A stretch of 64,000 nt of DNA, taken from IMG/VR virus record IMGVR_UViG_3300040974_000011. One strand, written 5' to 3'. Position 1 is the stretch's first letter. Every line of letters starts with the position of its first letter. Under the pieces are notes generated by a model. That model made no database searches and had not been told where the DNA came from. It saw only the letters and a program-made list of their open reading frames with translations. A program made the translations under genes and the position numbers. The stretch comes from an uncultured virus (IMG/VR IMGVR_UViG_3300040974_000011) (lineage: Duplodnaviria > Heunggongvirae > Uroviricota > Caudoviricetes). Positions 39,520-49,111 of the stretch are shown piece by piece.

Positions 39520-40563
39520 TCAGATCCGCACGGACCCGCGGCCACGCGGCGGCTCGTTGTCCGGCACCTTGAACACCCGTTTGAACAGGCGCTTAAACTC
39601 CATCCATGTGTCCGACGCCTGCATCAAGCCCACGACCTTCGACAAGTGCTTTTCAAGATGCGGGTTGCCGATCTCGTCGGTGAGAAATTGGTGATGCTTG
39701 AATTTGCGCTTGCCGTCGATGTCCTTCGGGTTCTGCGTCCGAAGCTGCTCTAGCACGCCGTCCGGTAGTCGCTCATAAACCAGTGCGTTGGTGAGCTTGC
39801 CGACGTACCCCGGCTTGGAGCGGCTGGCCGGGTCTAGGCCGTCCCAGCCATGAAGCCGGTAGATCTCCTCGTAGAACTCCAGCGGAAAGCGCTGAGCCCA
39901 TGGTAGCAGTTCTTTCGAGATGTACGCCTCTAGGATCTTGGCGAGGGCATCGCGCTTGCGAACCTGCTGATAGCCGGTTGCCTCATCGACCAAGGCGACA
40001 ATGCCGACCCGAGCGAGGCCGCGCATGACAAGTTCGCACTGGTAGGCAATCGGCATCTGTTGCGGTTGAAGCGCCCTGGCATCCCGAGCGGACAGGACAG
40101 CTTCGCACAGCATGACCAACGTGTCGGCCTCATACCCGTAGGCCTGATTACCGCTCGGCGTGCGGAAGTGAACGGGGTTCCGGACTCTATCGGCTAACTC
40201 ATTGTCAATAAACGGCTTTATGATCTTTCCGGCCGCAAAAAGCTCCATCCGACTCATGCCAGCGCGCATGCTGCCGCCCTGTGCGATCCCAAGTGCGGCC
40301 TGCATGCCGCTCGCGGACAGGATCCGACGCTCGTCTTCAAGAACGAAGCAGGGCAGTTCCATATCGCCGATGCGGACAGGGCGATCATCTGAGCCGAACT
40401 CGGCCTTGGGCAGGAGCGCTCGGTTCGGATCAGCCTTTGCCCATCGAGCGGCCGCGCCTGCTCGTGCAACTTCGCGGCGCTCCTCTGGGGTCATCTTACT
40501 CATGCGCGCTTTGCCGGCGCGGCGTTGAGGAGAGTTGTCGTTGGGCTGTTGATCGTCTGGCAT
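39520..40563 (-). CDS. P63C domain protein
   Basis: LARVGIVALVDEATGYQ...YISKELLPWAQRFP.EFY...KHHQFLT..IG.PHL. Confidence 0.9.
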   Translation of the reverse strand: MPDDQQPNDNSPQRRAGKARMSKMTPEERREVARAGAAARWAKADPNRALLPKAEFGSDDRPVRIGDMELPCFVLEDERRILSASGMQAALGIAQGGSMRAGMSRMELFAAGKIIKPFIDNELADRVRNPVHFRTPSGNQAYGYEADTLVMLCEAVLSARDARALQPQQMPIAYQCELVMRGLARVGIVALVDEATGYQQVRKRDALAKILEAYISKELLPWAQRFPLEFYEEIYRLHGWDGLDPASRSKPGYVGKLTNALVYERLPDGVLEQLRTQNPKDIDGKRKFKHHQFLTDEIGNPHLEKHLSKVVGLMQASDTWMEFKRLFKRVFKVPDNEPPRGRGSVRI

Positions 40564-40654
40564 GGCCGCTCCTGCTATCGTGCGATAGCACATATATGCC
40601 AGCGCTCGATAGCATCAAGCTGCACGGCGCCTACTCGGCGGCCTTTTTTGTCCG

Positions 40655-45075: not shown

Positions 45076-46149
45076 TCAGCGGGCCAATTTTTGAGGTTCG
45101 CCGAACCCACCGACTTCGTGCAGTTCGTCGTCCAGTTCCAGCGCCGCTGCGCTCTTGCTCAGAGCCTCTGGCGAGAAGCGGGCGTAAATGTCCCGTGTGA
45201 CTTTCATGTCGCTATGGCCCAAATGGCTGGCGATCTCGTCCATCGGAACGCCGGCCTCGGCCTGCCTGACGGCCGCCGAGTGGCGGAGCAGGTGCGGGTG
45301 GACATGAGGCAGGCCAGCAGCCTTTGCCGCGGTGGTTAGCCCCTTCTTGACCGACCGAACTGGCTTCCCGGCCCACTCGATCACGTAGTCCGACCGCGCG
45401 CCCTGTTTGGCCTCCAGCAAGCGCAAGCGGATCGTGCGTGTCATCTGCACGATGGCGCGTCCCTTATGCGCCGCTTTGATCTCAGGGTCTTCCAAGTCGA
45501 TCTTGTTGCGGTCGAACAGCACCCGGTCCCATGTCAGCCCAAGGATGGCCCCCGCGCGCCCGGCCGTCGCGTAGGCCAAATGCACGAACAGGGCGAGGTG
45601 CGGCGTTTTGCACGCATCGGCCAGCAGCCTGATCTGGCGCGCGGTCAGATGCCGGTCGCGGCGATCACGCACGGTCGCCGGCCGCTCAATGTCTGGTGCG
45701 GACTTGATCAGCCGATGTTTCTTGGCCCAGCGCAGCACTGTGCGGATCCGGCCTAGCTCGGTGATGATCGTGCCGTCCTTCCTGCCGAGAGAGCGACGCG
45801 CCGCGATATAAGCTCGGCAGTCGGCAATCGTGATGTCCTCCGCCGACATCGCGCCAAAATGTGGGGCTAGCGCCTTCCACTGATGCGCCATGATAGCGAC
45901 GGACGGATTGCCGGCCTTATCCCGGCGATAGGCTTCCCAAAGCTCGGCAACGGTCGTGCCCTTCGGCCTCAGAGCCTCGGCGTAGACCGCTGGCGCGCGG
46001 CGGCGAGCCTCAGTCTCGTTATCGGTGCCGAGCCGGAAACGCCGCCGTTTTCCATCCTGCCAGAAGCTGAGGACGCATTCGCCGTGAGGGAAGAGTCCCT
46101 GTCGCTTCTCTGATGCTCGAAGCCGGCCGATTTCATATTCGTCTGCCAT
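45076..46149 (-). CDS. int: tyrosine integrase
   Basis: TAGR, HLLRHSA, LGHSD..T..IY catalytic residues. Confidence 0.95.
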   Translation of the reverse strand: MADEYEIGRLRASEKRQGLFPHGECVLSFWQDGKRRRFRLGTDNETEARRRAPAVYAEALRPKGTTVAELWEAYRRDKAGNPSVAIMAHQWKALAPHFGAMSAEDITIADCRAYIAARRSLGRKDGTIITELGRIRTVLRWAKKHRLIKSAPDIERPATVRDRRDRHLTARQIRLLADACKTPHLALFVHLAYATAGRAGAILGLTWDRVLFDRNKIDLEDPEIKAAHKGRAIVQMTRTIRLRLLEAKQGARSDYVIEWAGKPVRSVKKGLTTAAKAAGLPHVHPHLLRHSAAVRQAEAGVPMDEIASHLGHSDMKVTRDIYARFSPEALSKSAAALELDDELHEVGGFGEPQKLAR

Positions 46150-46316
46150 GCGTTCTCCGTTGCCTCAACGGCGGCACGAGGGATCCTGAGGAGCTTCCCG
46201 CCAACCCGGAAGTGCCCGAGGTCGCCACGATTGACCATGTTGCGGACGTGCTGCTCGGAGCACCCCCATTCATCCGCGACCTCGCGCGGCGTCAGGATGT
46301 CAGGCCTGCGGGCCAT
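45969..46316 (-). CDS. xis: excisionase-like HTH protein
   Basis: LTPREVADEWGCS..HVRNMVNRG.L..FRVG..LLRIP; overlaps the int start. Confidence 0.8.
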   Translation of the reverse strand: MARRPDILTPREVADEWGCSEQHVRNMVNRGDLGHFRVGGKLLRIPRAAVEATENAWQTNMKSAGFEHQRSDRDSSLTANASSASGRMENGGVSGSAPITRLRLAAARQRSTPRL

Positions 46317-46460
46317 TCCGTCCTCCTGTGTCAGATCCTGTCTCGGGGAGAGGAGCGGCCTTGGCGATCGTGCGCCGGGCGAGCCATTGGCCGAACAGCG
46401 CGCAGCCCGAGCAGATGACGGCACCATGCGCGAAGCCCATGATGTAGGCTCCGAGGTTCG

Positions 46461-46976
46461 TCATCGGCTCTCCTCCTGGTTGAGGAGGGCAAGCTTCGCG
46501 GAGAGCCAGTCCCGACTGGTCAGGTAGCTTGTGGTGACCGTGACGTCGCCATTGTCGTTGAAGACGCATGCAGCGAACGGCTTGAGCGCCTTCTGGGCTT
46601 CCTGGAGTTGGCTGCGGAGGGAGGCGTTCTGCTCGTCTTTGTCTCGCAAAGCCTGCTCGACCACAGCCGTGTAGTCGGCGGACTCCTTCCGTGCGGCAGC
46701 GAGATCGGATCGGAGCTGGGCGAGGATCGGGGCAGCCGCCTCATTCGCGATCTGCGCCCCATCGCGCCGGGCGGCACCGAGGGCATCCAGCAACAGGGGC
46801 TCGGCGATCCTGCCGAACTCCTCGAATGGCCCCTTGAAGCCAAGGCCGTCAGCGAGGACCGCTTCCGTCAGGGAGACGGCCAGGTTCACGGCTTCATCAG
46901 CGAGCGCTGTGCGGAGGGCGTCATGCATCTCCCCGAAGCTGGCGTTGTCGGCGGTCCGGCCGGATGCGGGGGTCAT
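46461..46976 (-). CDS. hypothetical coiled-coil protein
   Basis: ATGA-coupled; ALKPFA motif typical of phage early genes. Confidence 0.5.
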   Translation of the reverse strand: MTPASGRTADNASFGEMHDALRTALADEAVNLAVSLTEAVLADGLGFKGPFEEFGRIAEPLLLDALGAARRDGAQIANEAAAPILAQLRSDLAAARKESADYTAVVEQALRDKDEQNASLRSQLQEAQKALKPFAACVFNDNGDVTVTTSYLTSRDWLSAKLALLNQEESR

Positions 46977-47356
46977 GCGAGCCTCCAGAGAACGAGCCCG
47001 TTGGTCAGGAGGTGCAGCGTGTTGTCGGCCACGATCAGCAGCCAGACCGAGAGCCACGCTGGCACGTCGTCGGTATAGCCAGTGGCCGTGACCGGGCCGC
47101 GGGCGCCGTTCTTCGCCCAGACCACGAAGCGGGCGAGCCGGAAGCGGTCGATGAAGAAGTGCGGAATGAGGATCCCAAGCCACGCCCACGCAGCAGCAGG
47201 CCCAAGGCCAGTGATCGGGATGAAGCAGCACGCATAGACGAGCGCGTGGGTCGCCGCGGCGAGGCTGTTGCGCGTCTTCTCGGTGGCCATCCAGTGACTT
47301 TGTAATAGAAAATCCCCAACGAGATGGGCTAAGATTTGATCCGCAGTCACGAACAT
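46973..47356 (-). CDS. DUF3307 membrane protein (recoded 5' end)
   Basis: AHLVGDFLLQS..MA..K...HALVY...HFFIDRF...ADNTLH. Confidence 0.85.
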   Translation of the reverse strand: MFVTADQILAHLVGDFLLQSHWMATEKTRNSLAAATHALVYACCFIPITGLGPAAAWAWLGILIPHFFIDRFRLARFVVWAKNGARGPVTATGYTDDVPAWLSVWLLIVADNTLHLLTNGLVLWRLA

Positions 47357-47369
47357 CTGGTCAGCCCCT

Positions 47370-47918
47370 ATGAACGAATACAACAGCTCCGACATCCTTC
47401 GATTTTGGGCGAAGGTGTCTAAGCAGGCGACTGATTGCTGCTGGCCGTGGACAGGGACTATGTCCGGTGATGGCTACGGGCTTTTTGACCGGCGACGCGA
47501 AGGAAAGAGGTTCGCCCGGCGGGCGCACCGCGTCGCCTACGAGCTGGCTCACGGTCCGCTGCCTGCGGGTTTGATGGTGCGCCACAAGTGCGACAACCCG
47601 CGCTGCTGCAACCCAAGCCACCTTGAGCCGGGCACGGCTGCCGAGAACTCGCGCGACATGGTGGAGCGCGGTAGGCATTGGACGCTTCAGCGCCCAACAG
47701 AAGTCCCTCGCGGCTCCGAGCACTGGACGGCGCGCAATGGCACGGCGCCACTTCTGCGCGGCCAAGATCATCCTAGCGCCAAATTGACGGCCGAGATGGT
47801 TCGGGAGATCAGGGCAGCGCGAGATGTCCCTCAGCGCGAACTGGCGCGACGCTACGGTGTCTCGCAGGGGGCAATCTGGCAGGTGCTTCGCGGCAACCAC
47901 TGGTCCCACGTAAGCTGA
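47370..47918 (+). CDS. HNH homing endonuclease with C-terminal HTH
   Basis: FWAKV...CWPWTG..GYG...AHRVAYE...VRHKCDNPRCCNPSHLEPGT..EN..DM; AKLT and LARRYGVSQ. Confidence 0.9.
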   Translation: MNEYNSSDILRFWAKVSKQATDCCWPWTGTMSGDGYGLFDRRREGKRFARRAHRVAYELAHGPLPAGLMVRHKCDNPRCCNPSHLEPGTAAENSRDMVERGRHWTLQRPTEVPRGSEHWTARNGTAPLLRGQDHPSAKLTAEMVREIRAARDVPQRELARRYGVSQGAIWQVLRGNHWSHVS

Positions 47919-47981
47919 CTGGAGCAGATAGTCCCCGACGAGGTGCGCCACGATCTGGTCGGCGGTGAAGAAGGCGCTCAT
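47916..47981 (-). pseudogene. original 5' end of the DUF3307 gene, cut off by the HNH insertion
   Basis: MSAFFTADQIVAHLVGDYLLQS duplicates the start of 46973-47356. Confidence 0.85.
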
Positions 47982-49111
47982 TCTTCCGCCTCCCCCTGAA
48001 GGGTGCGGAGCGCGGTTTCGATGGCGTCGGCTCGGTCGCGCATGCCGGCTTTGCGAGCCGTGTTGTGAACGTGATCGGCAGTCCCCCGCAGCCACATGAC
48101 GAGCCCTTCCGGGGTCATGGGCCTAGGAACCTCGCGTAGCACCTCCTTCGCCTCCTCGACCGCCATGGATCCGGTCTTGAGGGTGGGCGAAGACTGGGGG
48201 GAGGGTTCGGGCGTTCTGGCTTCGCCCGTCCGGTCGTGCTCGATGGCCTGATCCTCGCCCATCGTCCGCCAGTCAGGCCACGTCCGAGCGAAATTACGAT
48301 CCTGCTTGGCCTGCATCGCCGGCAGCAGGTCTTCCGGCTTGCCGCCATGGCGCCAGAAGCCGTCCATCGCCAGGATGATGACGTCGACCCACTCGGCCAG
48401 ATCGTGCGGCTCGGCCTCGATCTCGCGAAGCTCCTTGGTGATGTGCTGGACGATGCCCTTGGTCCGCAGGGCCGGGCCGAACGTCTCCTTCGACCACGCC
48501 CATTGCCGGTGAAGGTAGGCGACGAGGTCCGCCCCCTTCTCCTTTCCTGATCCAGAGGCGAGAACGAGCTTCCCGGAGCGGTGAACTTCGTCGGATTTGA
48601 TCGCCGATCGCAGATCCATAATGTAGTCCGGCAGCGTGCCGACTGATCCGTCCTTGTCGAACCAGTTTACGACCTCCAGAGCGGCTTCGCGCAACGTCAG
48701 CTCGCCTTCGAAGCGATCGCCGGGGAAGTCTGCTCTCAGCCGTTCCAGTTCGCCACCATCCCCATCCCCGCTTGAGGAGACGGGTGCGGCGGCGACATGC
48801 TCGGCCCATTGGCTCGCATCGGTGATGACGCGGGCCAGCCGCTCGCCGTCGACGTCGCTTCGGACGAAGTTGGACAGCCGCGCTCGATCCGTAGCGGTGG
48901 AGTAGACGGTCAGGCCGTCTCGGACGGACAGGGCCACCGGCATCCGCGCCATGTACTGCCGGATCCAGGCGTCCCGCTTCTCGCAGTACTCCGCGTGGGT
49001 TTGTGCCCAGCCGGAGATGCCGGTTGCGTGCCCTCGCCCGTAGGCGTCGCGCAGGGCCTTCGCGAGATCACCGTCTCGGACGGACGGGGCTGTATTGGTG
49101 GGGGTGTGCAT
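47978..49111 (-). CDS. DUF550-like dATP/dGTP pyrophosphohydrolase domain protein
   Basis: QWAWSKETFGP..RTKG...HITKELREI...EWVDVIILAMDG.WR. Confidence 0.8.
   Translation of the reverse strand: MHTPTNTAPSVRDGDLAKALRDAYGRGHATGISGWAQTHAEYCEKRDAWIRQYMARMPVALSVRDGLTVYSTATDRARLSNFVRSDVDGERLARVITDASQWAEHVAAAPVSSSGDGDGGELERLRADFPGDRFEGELTLREAALEVVNWFDKDGSVGTLPDYIMDLRSAIKSDEVHRSGKLVLASGSGKEKGADLVAYLHRQWAWSKETFGPALRTKGIVQHITKELREIEAEPHDLAEWVDVIILAMDGFWRHGGKPEDLLPAMQAKQDRNFARTWPDWRTMGEDQAIEHDRTGEARTPEPSPQSSPTLKTGSMAVEEAKEVLREVPRPMTPEGLVMWLRGTADHVHNTARKAGMRDRADAIETALRTLQGEAEE

What the first reader, a model, noticed from the sequence alone, without database searches (positions are those of the whole stretch)
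46973..47981. HNH element that repairs the gene it interrupts with a recoded duplicate 5' end
Seen: the original start MSAFFTADQIVAHLVGDYLLQS (47981-47916, GC-rich codons acc gcc gac cag atc gtg gcg cac ctc gtc ggg gac tat ctg ctc cag) is cut off by an antisense HNH gene whose stop codon lies on the junction. Beyond it a new start MFVTADQILAHLVGDFLLQS (from 47356; act gcg gat caa atc tta gcc cat ctc gtt ggg gat ttt cta tta caa) rebuilds the gene, with most wobble positions changed and its own AGGGG RBS. The old start reads through the whole insert and stops at 47363-47361, 4 nt before the new ATG, which would keep translational coupling. Open in-register antisense frames are common at this GC, but the stop placement is striking. 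Inference: a splicing-free homing element that stays neutral and cleavage-immune by supplying a recoded gene start.
Basis: partly seen in the sequence, partly recalled or inferred. Interest (0 to 1): 0.8.

Follow-up and report, generated by a model that had tools for sequence, protein, structure and literature searches.

The report
Homing nuclease cassette replacing a gene start
A selfish DNA-cutting-enzyme gene sits inside a small prophage gene without destroying it, because it brought its own differently spelled copy of the gene's first 20 codons; this layout is documented in yeast and fungal mitochondria for gene ends, and here it affects a gene start in a prophage.

Summary
On the minus strand, a native DUF3307 start (47981-47916, wobble GC 0.89-0.91) is cut off by an antisense HNH_3 endonuclease gene (47370-47918). 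Thirteen bases beyond it, a second start (47356) rebuilds a full 127-aa DUF3307. Its first 20 codons have wobble GC 0.40, against 0.87 for the rest.

The two copies are 63% identical in DNA and 15 of 18 identical in protein. The remnant resembles HNH-free relatives (up to 85%) more than the new copy does (at most 74%).

New here: two metagenome contigs with HNH relatives (56% and 53% identity) have that HNH directly upstream of DUF3307. Both show the same AT-rich first ~20 codons, with the switch at the same codon. None of 83 distinct HNH-free alleles shows such a drop. So HNH plus a resistant-looking gene start behaves as one unit, gained at least twice.

This mirrors yeast WHO elements and fungal mitochondrial mORF gene hybrids, which replace 3' ends. 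Cleavage, immunity and homing were not tested.

The read-through coupling idea is not above chance: an open in-register antisense frame occurs in about 15-18% of comparable genes.

Verdict: a new variant of a known kind. The same layout was noted before by this scan on other phage DNA.

The parts
47978..49111 (-). Upstream gene of the early-left operon (377 aa, dATP/dGTP pyrophosphohydrolase domain). Its stop overlaps the old DUF3307 ATG (ATGA).
   Evidence: ORF; PF04447, 5.4e-23, 81.5 bits; phrog_4826.
47916..47981 (-). OLD native 5' end of DUF3307 (22 codons, MSAFFTADQIVAHLVGDYLLQS), now an orphan remnant. GGAGG lies 7 nt upstream. Homology to DUF3307 ends at the Ser codon.
   Evidence: wobble GC 0.89 and 78-85% nt identity to most close high-GC relatives (L003, L006-L008, L027, L049); identity to the free-allele consensus is lost right after the Ser codon.
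47361..47981 (-). Read-through frame from the old ATG, 206 codons, in register antisense to the HNH gene. It stops at TGA 47363-47361.
   Evidence: no Pfam family; an open frame is expected in 15-18% of such genes.
47370..47918 (+). HNH_3 endonuclease gene (182 aa): an I-HmuI-like His-Me finger domain plus a C-terminal helix-turn-helix, antisense to the operon.
   Evidence: PF13392, 1.6e-16; the N-terminal FWAKV..CW.WTG block is conserved in full-length homologues, so the start is 47370. (phrog_59, 2.1e-35); model pLDDT 84, top fold match I-HmuI 1u3e.
47357..47369 (-). 13-nt spacer between the divergent starts. It holds AGGGG (47369-47365) and TGA (47363-47361).
47297..47356 (-). NEW cassette-borne 5' end of DUF3307 (20 codons, MFVTADQILAHLVGDFLLQS), with wobble GC 0.40. 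It uses TTA twice and CTA once.
46973..47356 (-). Functional chimeric DUF3307 gene (127 aa): the cassette 5' end plus the resident body.
   Evidence: PF11750. (phrog_6676, 2.2e-32); it differs at 3 of 65 conserved columns, within the 0-7 range of 16 relatives.
47297..47918 (.). Inferred inserted cassette (about 620 nt): HNH ORF, spacer and recoded 5' end. Each junction is ambiguous by a few bases.
   Evidence: where homology to free alleles stops and resumes; GC dip to 0.43-0.52 at 47260-47440.
46461..46976 (-). Downstream gene (171 aa, no family). Its start overlaps the DUF3307 stop.

Best explanation
A free-standing HNH homing-endonuclease cassette has inserted into the 5' end of a prophage DUF3307 gene. 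Its mobile unit is the HNH ORF plus a divergent, AT-rich copy of the first 20 codons of the target gene, with its own ATG and Shine-Dalgarno sequence.

Inferred mechanism:
1. The HNH recognises the conserved DUF3307 5' coding sequence in cassette-free phages. This sequence is roughly GTC GGC GAC TAC CTS CTG CAR TCS CAC TGG ATG GC.
2. It nicks or cuts near the Gln-Ser/His-Trp codons.
3. The break is repaired from a cassette-bearing copy. The gene body serves as the right homology arm.
4. In this window's layout, the retained native 5' remnant serves as the left arm. It is 60-66 nt long and ends exactly at the junction.
5. The new 5' copy differs from the target at 20-24 of 54 positions, so the rebuilt gene should no longer be recognised.

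Why the copy is AT-rich (inference): in a GC-rich target, the only synonymous alternative to a two-fold codon ending in C or G ends in T or A. Escape by synonymous change therefore makes the segment AT-rich.

Shown: the anatomy, the composition, the recurrence of the HNH-plus-5'-end unit, and an intact, conserved DUF3307.
Inferred: nuclease activity, the cut site, immunity, the role of the remnant as a homology arm, and homing.
For: 1. Anatomy and families.

2. The remnant is native-like and the new copy is foreign.
- OLD is 78-85% identical in DNA to most close high-GC relatives (L003, L006-L008, L027, L049) and has wobble GC 0.89.
- NEW is 37-74% identical to all 33 alleles compared and has wobble GC 0.33.
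- Homology of OLD to DUF3307 ends at the codon where NEW switches from AT-rich to GC-rich codons.

3. Recurrence.
- L054 (HNH 56% identical) and L058 (53% over the 88 residues present) have the HNH immediately upstream of DUF3307, overlapping its start.
- Their 5' wobble GC is 0.28-0.35, against 0.81-0.98 for the body.
- The switch lies at codon 20-25 in all three.

4. Controls.
- None of 83 distinct HNH-free alleles has a 5' drop of 0.5 or more. The largest is 0.35 and the median 0.04.
- Among the 46 alleles with body wobble GC of at least 0.8, the lowest 5' value is 0.61.

5. Sporadic distribution.
- No HNH lies next to DUF3307 in 20 viral, 12 genome and 4 genus loci, nor in 76 further loci.
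- Of 99 loci with more distant HNH homologues, only L058 has DUF3307 nearby.

6. At least two gains. The window's DUF3307 body nests among 16 free alleles (support 95/88), while L054 and L058 sit elsewhere.

7. The HNH is I-HmuI-like.
- Model pLDDT is 84, and the top Foldseek hit is 1u3e (E 1.6e-3, probability 1.00), followed by I-PpoI.
- His, Asn and Asp columns are invariant in 9 homologues.

8. The new 5' end is more AT-rich than the HNH it travels with: 8 of 20 against 133 of 183 GC-ending codons, Fisher p = 0.004. That argues for constraint at the nucleotide level rather than donor ancestry alone.

9. Precedent.
- WHO elements replace the FBA1 3' end with a resistance-conferring copy and keep the displaced fragment as a recombination site (PMC7282813, abstract and section 10 read).
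- Glomus mORF hybrids show 63.5% nt and 91% aa identity between the duplicated ends (PMC3630166, passages read).
Against: - No cleavage, immunity or homing data exist.
- No identical cassette was found in a second genomic context. The three 100% matches (L051-L053) are the same locus.
- Only three HNH-linked alleles are known. L054 and L058 pair in the body tree (91/88), so they may count as one event.
- L054 has no native remnant upstream of its HNH. A remnant is therefore not a constant part of the unit.
- The HNH orientation differs: antisense here, same strand in L054 and L058.
- Free alleles show no 5'/body discordance that would mark past homing. In 8 close pairs, 5' identity is 0.78-0.87 and body identity 0.63-0.87.
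- AT-rich 5' codons also weaken mRNA structure at the start. The MFE is -16.5 for NEW against -24.5 for OLD. Expression rather than immunity could explain them.
- L022 matches the nuclease half at 54% identity, lacks the C-terminal domain, and has no DUF3307 within 3 kb.
Confidence: 0.72

Rival explanations
1. An ordinary free-standing HEG plus a scar. The HNH and its neighbouring DUF3307 start came in by one illegitimate recombination. On this reading the remnant is a functionless leftover. The AT-rich codons exist for expression: unstructured mRNA for de novo initiation and, in this orientation, the HNH promoter. They do not exist for cleavage immunity.
For: - The MFE around the start is weaker for all three HNH-linked alleles (-16.5, -15.2, -8.7) than for OLD (-24.5) and for high-GC free alleles (-25.6 to -31.7).
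- The AT-rich segment lies directly upstream of the HNH ATG in the window.
- Free alleles also show a small general 5' drop, median 0.04 and up to 0.35.
- L054 has no remnant.
- One contig (L051) lacks part of the remnant.
Against: - The promoter scan finds no sigma-70-like site in 46900-48200.
- In L054 and L058 the AT-rich segment is downstream of the HNH, so it cannot be its promoter.
- The drop is 0.53-0.64 in 3 of 3 linked alleles and never reaches 0.5 in 83 free alleles. Those free alleles also need translation initiation.
- The composition switch sits at the same codon in three lineages.
Confidence: 0.2
2. A local tandem duplication of the gene start followed by divergence in place. The HNH would be an unrelated or decaying passenger.
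For: The two copies are direct repeats flanking the HNH.
Against: - 12 of 15 same-residue codons differ, and they differ directionally towards A/T. The next codons are host-like, with wobble GC 1.00 for codons 21-40.
- The same AT-rich 5' end recurs beside related HNHs in unrelated contigs.
- The HNH is intact, with invariant catalytic columns.
Confidence: 0.03
3. A sub-hypothesis of the first reader: the old start is kept so that ribosomes coupled to the upstream gene read through the antisense HNH and terminate 4 nt before the new ATG. That would preserve translational coupling of DUF3307.
For: - The frame is open for 206 codons and ends at TGA 47363-47361. That TGA is the only stop before the frame would run on through DUF3307 into the downstream gene's frame.
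- OLD keeps a GGAGG and the ATGA overlap.
- In L054 and L058 the DUF3307 start overlaps the end of the HNH ORF, so coupling to an upstream ORF is the rule there too.
Against: - An open in-register antisense frame is expected in 15% of such genes from codon frequencies. It is seen in 7 of 39 HNH homologues with wobble GC of at least 0.65.
- Contig L051 lacks the old ATG. There the upstream gene's frame ends inside the HNH antisense, 42 codons past the deletion joint.
- The new start has its own AGGGG.
Confidence: 0.2

Closest known systems
WHO elements at the yeast aldolase gene FBA1 (Coughlan et al. 2020, PMC7282813; abstract and section 10 read)
   Same: - A splicing-free homing unit made of an endonuclease gene plus a resistance-conferring, divergent copy of one end of the target gene.
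- The displaced native end stays on the far side of the endonuclease gene. It is proposed to act as the recombination site.
- The target gene becomes a chimera.
   Different: - WHO replaces the 3' end; here the 5' end is replaced, so the unit must also bring a start codon and ribosome-binding site.
- The WHO nuclease is intein/LAGLIDADG-like; here it is HNH_3 with an HTH.
- WHO acts in the yeast nuclear genome at meiosis; here the host is a prophage.
- WHO cleavage was shown experimentally; here nothing has been tested.
Mobile endonuclease ORFs (mORFs) forming gene hybrids in fungal mitochondria: Allomyces macrogynus atp6; Glomus atp6, atp9, cox2 and nad3 (Beaudet et al. 2013, PMC3630166, passages read; the Allomyces case as cited there)
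   Same: - The endonuclease ORF is flanked by an inserted foreign gene end and the native end.
- The native end is closer to relatives.
- The duplicates are about 63% identical in DNA but about 90% in protein.
   Different: - C-terminal ends there, not 5' ends.
- LAGLIDADG or GIY-YIG enzymes there.
- Organelle genomes there.
- In several hybrids the mORF is in phase with the gene, whereas this HNH is antisense.
[quoted passage not shown]
   Same: - A free-standing phage HEG beside its target gene.
- Spread by break repair, with co-conversion of flanking sequence.
- L054 and L058 look like this ordinary layout.
   Different: - Per the review, those enzymes cut hundreds to thousands of bases from their own gene. 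The passages I read describe no duplicated, respelled gene end that rebuilds an interrupted ORF.
- In this window the HEG sits inside the ORF.
I-HmuI (PDB 1u3e), the HNH homing endonuclease of Bacillus phage SPO1
   Same: - Best fold match of the nuclease domain.
- A His-Me finger plus a C-terminal helix-turn-helix architecture. That I-HmuI has an HTH is recalled, not tested here.
   Different: - I-HmuI is intron-encoded.
- Only 75 columns align, at 24% identity.
- The sequence search of the PDB found no hit to an HNH nuclease: phmmer found no chain at E up to 0.01, and the profile search gave only weak hits, none below E 0.018 (mostly HTH proteins; I-PpoI at E 0.25).

Membership tests
HNH (His-Me finger) homing endonuclease, HNH_3 / I-HmuI-like | HNH_3 domain above Pfam's gathering score | tested here: met
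   PF13392, 60.1 bits against a cut-off of 24.8, covering profile positions 1-46 of 46; phrog_59 'HNH endonuclease', 2.1e-35.
HNH (His-Me finger) homing endonuclease, HNH_3 / I-HmuI-like | His-Me finger fold with conserved catalytic His/Asn | tested here: met
   model pLDDT 84. Top hits are I-HmuI 1u3e (E 1.6e-3, probability 1.00, rmsd 2.0 over 75 columns), then I-PpoI. H53, H72, D75, H84, N93 and D96 are invariant in 9 homologues. Which of these is the general base is recalled, not tested.
HNH (His-Me finger) homing endonuclease, HNH_3 / I-HmuI-like | Separate DNA-binding module | tested here: inconclusive
   HTH_31, HTH_3 and HTH_24 hits are all below their cut-offs; profile hits to HTH proteins at E 0.018-0.4; three helices at residues 141-173 with pLDDT 94-96.
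HNH (His-Me finger) homing endonuclease, HNH_3 / I-HmuI-like | Sporadic presence among otherwise related loci | tested here: met
   no adjacent HNH in any of the DUF3307 loci examined (36 loci, then 76 more); all 131 phage records with DUF3307 cover at least 80% of it in one piece.
HNH (His-Me finger) homing endonuclease, HNH_3 / I-HmuI-like | Site-specific cleavage of the element-free allele and super-Mendelian inheritance | not testable with these tools
   Needs enzyme assays and crosses.
Gene-end-replacing homing elements (WHO / mitochondrial mORF hybrids) | Endonuclease ORF next to a divergent copy of the target gene's end that is in frame with the gene core | tested here: met
   NEW 5' end 47297-47356 is continuous with the DUF3307 body. 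It is 63% identical in DNA to OLD, and 15 of 18 residues are identical.
Gene-end-replacing homing elements (WHO / mitochondrial mORF hybrids) | Displaced native end retained beyond the endonuclease, and closer to relatives than the inserted copy | tested here: met
   OLD is 78-85% identical to most close relatives (L003, L006-L008, L027, L049). NEW is at most 74% identical to any allele.
Gene-end-replacing homing elements (WHO / mitochondrial mORF hybrids) | The same unit (nuclease plus gene end) recurs on different genomic backgrounds | tested here: met
   L054 and L058, with at least two gains on the DUF3307 body tree. Caveat: only three cases, and no remnant in L054.
Gene-end-replacing homing elements (WHO / mitochondrial mORF hybrids) | It is the 3' end of the gene that is replaced | tested here: not met
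   Here the 5' end is replaced, with a new ATG and Shine-Dalgarno sequence. So this works like these elements but is a mirror-image variant, not a member by descent. The nuclease families also differ.
Gene-end-replacing homing elements (WHO / mitochondrial mORF hybrids) | Allele-specific cleavage: native end sensitive, inserted end resistant | not testable with these tools
   There is only a sequence contrast. All three linked alleles share GAT, TWT and TTR where free alleles have GAC, TAC and CTS.
Group I/II intron or intein carrying a HEG | Self-splicing RNA or an in-frame protein-splicing domain around the HEG | tested here: not met
   no intron family among 4227 Rfam models at E up to 1, only two chance hits at 16 bits. 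The HNH is on the opposite strand, so it cannot be an intein.

The most novel reading that the evidence does not exclude
The three-part arrangement is a complete, portable homing unit for mosaic phages. The parts are a native-like 60-nt 5' remnant, the HNH, and a respelled 5' end with its own start.

DUF3307's upstream neighbours are unrelated in every close pair compared. The only left-hand homology shared by all targets is therefore the gene's own first 60 nt. The element carries that stretch as a remnant ending exactly at the cut. The respelled copy gives both immunity and a fresh translation start.

On this reading a DUF3307-specialised HNH clade uses a 5'-end mirror image of the yeast WHO mechanism. 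That lets it live inside ORFs, in either orientation, without introns or inteins.
Probability: 0.35. Interest if true: 0.65.

Novelty: new variant of a known kind. Interest (0 to 1): 0.5.

Why it matters
Homing endonucleases are usually thought to need an intron, an intein or an intergenic site to be harmless. This locus suggests another route in phages: carry a respelled copy of the target gene's end.

That route is established for 3' ends in yeast and fungal mitochondria. Here it is used at a 5' end, which also requires bringing translation signals.

My searches found no published phage account of this layout. Earlier notes of this scan report several phage cases, so it may be a common, overlooked source of three things in phage genomes: chimeric gene ends, orphan gene fragments, and mis-called starts. 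On the last point, this HNH was called 30 residues short in the protein collection.

It also gives a concrete, testable target prediction for an uncharacterised HNH clade.

Tried and rejected
- **Own genome.** No whole genome is held for the window, so a cassette-free copy in the same genome could not be sought.
- **More cassette copies.** 401 genomes of the family gave a best HNH match of 48-49%. 401 genomes of the order gave none at E up to 1e-35. In 146 genomes of the genus, 4 have DUF3307 and none has an adjacent HNH. Phage records reach at most 43% HNH identity. Viral contigs reach at most 45% for full-length matches.
- **Promoter and terminator scan.** Nothing was found in 46900-48200. 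By eye there is only a weak TAGAAA-18-TAAGAT upstream of the HNH.
- **Sequencing runs.** Contigs of 4 runs are identical to the window where they cover it. No contig joins across the insert. The only RNA-library contig covers 47018-47218 and does not show transcription. Contigs of X14 stop at 47934 and resume at 48060, which neither confirms nor refutes the L051 deletion.
- **Footprints of past homing in free alleles.** No 5'/body discordance in 8 close pairs.
- **DNA repeat search.** It does not see the duplication, which is only 63% identical.
- **AGTCA at both junctions.** Precise excision between the two copies would not restore the frame, so it is microhomology or chance.
- **PDB sequence searches.** No HNH nuclease was hit. 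The fold search was needed.
- **Second integrase.** ORF 39520-40593 is not similar to the integrase-sized ORF at 45076-46149.
Full report
**1. What is there**

The region lies in the leftward early operon of a prophage-like stretch. That operon runs on the minus strand down to an excisionase-like ORF (45969-46427) and a 357-aa ORF at 45076-46149 that I read as a tyrosine integrase by eye; no family search was run on the latter.

Reading the minus strand:
- A 377-aa gene with a dATP/dGTP pyrophosphohydrolase domain (47978-49111) ends in ATGA.
- The ATG of that overlap (47981) opens MSAFFTADQIVAHLVGDYLLQS, the normal N-terminus of a DUF3307 protein.
- After the Ser codon (47918-47916), similarity to DUF3307 stops.
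- That TCA codon is the reverse complement of the TGA stop of a plus-strand gene, 47370-47918.
- The plus-strand gene is a 182-aa HNH_3 endonuclease (Pfam 60.1 bits against a cut-off of 24.8; phrog_59).
- Thirteen bases beyond the HNH start codon, ATG 47356 opens MFVTADQILAHLVGDFLLQSHWMATEK... This runs as an intact 127-aa DUF3307 (PF11750; phrog_6676, 2.2e-32) to 46973.
- There it overlaps the start of the next gene.

Full-length HNH homologues conserve the N-terminal FWAKV..CW.WTG block. The HNH therefore starts at 47370, not at Met31 as in the 152-aa form held by the protein collection.

**2. Is the 'recoding' real?**

Yes.
- Over the 18 duplicated codons the two copies are 63% identical in DNA, and 15 residues are the same. 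Twelve of those 15 codons are spelled differently.
- Wobble GC is 0.89 in the old copy and 0.33 in the new one. It returns to 1.00 in codons 21-40 of the gene.
- The new copy uses TTA twice and CTA once. TTA occurs 4 times in about 8000 codons of 20 window genes.
- Only 0.85% of 7750 twenty-codon windows in 21 window genes reach a wobble GC of 0.40 or less.
- The old copy is 78-85% identical to most of the close high-GC relatives. The new copy is at most 74% identical to any of 33 alleles.

**3. Relatives without the insert**

I collected DUF3307 loci from four sources:
- viral contigs (20 loci; 76 more);
- species-representative genomes (12 loci; the closest are two Methylobacterium genomes at 70-71% protein identity);
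- 146 genomes of that genus (4 with the gene);
- phage records (131, all covering at least 80% of the protein in one piece).

None has an HNH next to the gene. L006 and L009 have distant HNH genes about 3 kb away.

After removing duplicates, 83 HNH-free alleles could be anchored on the H-x-x-G-D-Y/F motif. Eight of the last 76 loci could not be anchored and were left out.

For each allele I compared the wobble GC of the 18 codons up to the Ser with that of the next 80 codons:
- The median drop is 0.04 and the largest is 0.35.
- Among the 46 alleles with body wobble GC of at least 0.8, the lowest 5' value is 0.61.

**4. The HNH travels with the AT-rich start**

The HNH has no close relative.
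- The best non-self proteins are 57-60% identical, among 456 hits.
- A metagenome scan with an alignment of this subclade returned 9 loci.
- Three of them (L051-L053) are 100% identical copies of the window's locus.
- L054 carries an HNH 56% identical. L058, cut inside the HNH, is 53% identical over 88 residues.

In both L054 and L058 the HNH lies directly upstream of a DUF3307 gene on the same strand, and its end overlaps the DUF3307 start. In both, the first ~20 DUF3307 codons are again AT-rich. The switch falls at codon 20-25, as in the window.

| Locus | Wobble GC, 5' end | Wobble GC, rest of gene |
|---|---|---|
| Window | 0.40 | 0.87 |
| L054 | 0.35 | 0.81 |
| L058 | 0.30-0.35 | 0.97-0.98 |

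Further points:
- L054 even begins MFVTADQ, like the window's new start.
- The three linked alleles have the three largest drops (0.53-0.64) of the 86 alleles.
- All three share GAT, TWT and TTR where free alleles have GAC, TAC and CTS just before the junction.
- Of 99 loci with more distant HNH homologues (at most about 48% identity, plus the nuclease-only L022), only L058 has DUF3307 within the flanks.
- On a tree of DUF3307 bodies the window's allele nests among 16 free alleles (support 95/88). L054 and L058 pair elsewhere (91/88). The link therefore arose at least twice.

In L054 and L058 the HNH is itself AT-richer than its surroundings (wobble GC 0.52 and 0.43, against 0.71-0.98), so the whole cassette is a compositional island there. 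In the window the HNH has wobble GC 0.73, yet the 5' segment stays at 0.40 (Fisher p = 0.004). This points to constraint on those bases themselves.

**5. What the HNH is**

- An AlphaFold model built on 9 homologues has pLDDT 84.
- Foldseek ranks the HNH homing endonuclease I-HmuI first (1u3e; E 1.6e-3, probability 1.00, 75 columns, rmsd 2.0), then I-PpoI.
- The C-terminal 40 residues form three confident helices. They give sub-threshold HTH matches.
- No intron model matches the region.
- The gene is antisense to its host gene, which excludes an intein.

**6. How it most likely works (inference)**

The layout is the mirror image of two documented systems.

*Yeast WHO elements.* They home into FBA1 and replace its 3' end with a resistance-conferring copy. 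The displaced fragment beyond the nuclease gene serves as the recombination site (PMC7282813; abstract and section 10 read).

*Fungal mitochondrial mORFs.* They create gene hybrids with an inserted foreign C-terminus and a native remnant. For Glomus atp6 the two ends are 63.5% identical in DNA and 91% in protein (PMC3630166, passages read).

By analogy, I propose these steps:
1. The HNH recognises the conserved GC-rich 5' coding sequence of naive DUF3307 genes.
2. It breaks the DNA near the Gln-Ser/His-Trp codons.
3. Repair copies the cassette from a bearer.
4. The respelled start makes the rebuilt gene resistant.

Respelling a GC-rich target synonymously must make it AT-rich. The only synonymous alternative to a two-fold codon ending in C or G ends in T or A.

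The native remnant ends exactly at the junction. The sequences upstream of DUF3307 are unrelated (18-42% identity) in all 8 close allele pairs compared. The 60-nt remnant may therefore be the only left-hand homology available for homing into diverse phages.

The rebuilt gene looks functional. It differs from 16 relatives at 3 of 65 conserved columns, within their own range of 0-7.

**7. What is not supported**

*The read-through frame.* The 206-codon frame from the old ATG is in register with the HNH codons. It is open whenever the HNH lacks TTA, CTA and TCA. The expectation is 0.15, and 7 of 39 GC-rich HNH homologues show it.

In its favour, the TGA 4 nt before the new ATG is the only stop that prevents this frame from running through DUF3307 into the next gene's frame. 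That keeps the coupling idea alive.

*The L051 deletion.* Contig L051 lacks 124 bp, including the old ATG. Contigs of one run break at both edges of that gap, so this may be an artefact.

*Expression as an alternative.* The AT-rich start also lowers predicted mRNA structure, -16.5 against -24.5 kcal/mol. Expression is therefore a live alternative, or an additional reason, for the respelling.

*Missing evidence.* No promoter-like site was found. No second genomic context of the identical cassette was found, and no empty site of this same prophage.

**8. Novelty**

The mechanism is known in kind from WHO elements and mORFs. Free-standing phage HEGs with co-conversion are also known (PMC2988022, passages read).

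The following appear to be undescribed:
- replacement of a 5' end, which needs a new start and ribosome-binding site;
- an antisense HNH_3;
- a prophage host;
- an HNH subclade tied to DUF3307.

My literature searches found no phage description of a duplicated, respelled gene end around a HEG. The only paper that mentions DUF3307 concerns a jumbo phage (listing only).

Earlier notes of this scan record the same layout on other phage DNA. Most involve 3' ends. One involves a 5' end, in a VRR-NUC gene. I did not check those notes, apart from reading the WHO paper that one of them named.

Noticed in passing
L051 against window 47940-48063: One of three otherwise identical metagenome contigs lacks 124 bp. 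The missing stretch holds the old ATG, 14 remnant codons and the last 27 codons of the upstream gene. Logan contigs of run X14 stop at 47934 and resume at 48060. Whether this is a real variant or an assembly gap is unresolved.
   Followed up: partly
window 47355-47365 and 47953-47963: The spacer plus the new ATG (minus strand GCTGACCAGAT) matches 10 of 11 bases of the old copy's Ala-Asp-Gln-Ile codons, in frame. This gives '...GADQ-M-FVTADQI'. It may be a tiny relic of a further gene start, or chance; the repeat finder lists ten such short families in 1.2 kb.
   Followed up: no
window 47920-47916 and 47299-47295: AGTCA occurs at both junctions of the insert, one base out of register with the codons. 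Excision between the two copies would not restore the frame. It could be microhomology of an illegitimate join, or chance.
   Followed up: partly
window about 47235-47160 (DUF3307 codons ~41-66): A locally divergent stretch, YACCFIPITGLGPAAAWAWLGILIP, with a 4-residue insertion relative to 16 relatives. The rest of the protein is highly conserved, and the terminal branch in the tree is long (0.53).
   Followed up: partly
DUF3307 loci L001-L049, 120 nt upstream of the gene: In all 8 close allele pairs compared, the gene is 63-87% identical in DNA while the sequence just upstream is unrelated (18-42%). The DUF3307 start is therefore a mosaic boundary in these phages.
   Followed up: partly
window 46900-48100: The stretch is held nearly identically (at least half of the sampled words) by 14 public runs from several studies with different organism labels and metagenomes. 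The host bacterium or its prophage therefore turns up widely.
   Followed up: no
L020 4001-4120; L050 1501-1755: Two relatives match only the first part of DUF3307 (residues 6-45 and 1-86). The L020 frame ends after 55 codons. These may be truncated or rearranged alleles.
   Followed up: no
window 47424 (run X13): One low-depth contig follows the window to 47424, inside the HNH 5' region, and then continues with 28 unrelated letters. A single contig; not interpreted.
   Followed up: no
window 46964-47305 (+): The in-register antisense frame of DUF3307 is open for 113 codons. It is closed by the TAA that is the reverse of one of the recoded TTA codons. TAA, TAG and a further TAA lie on the plus strand upstream of the HNH start.
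   Followed up: no
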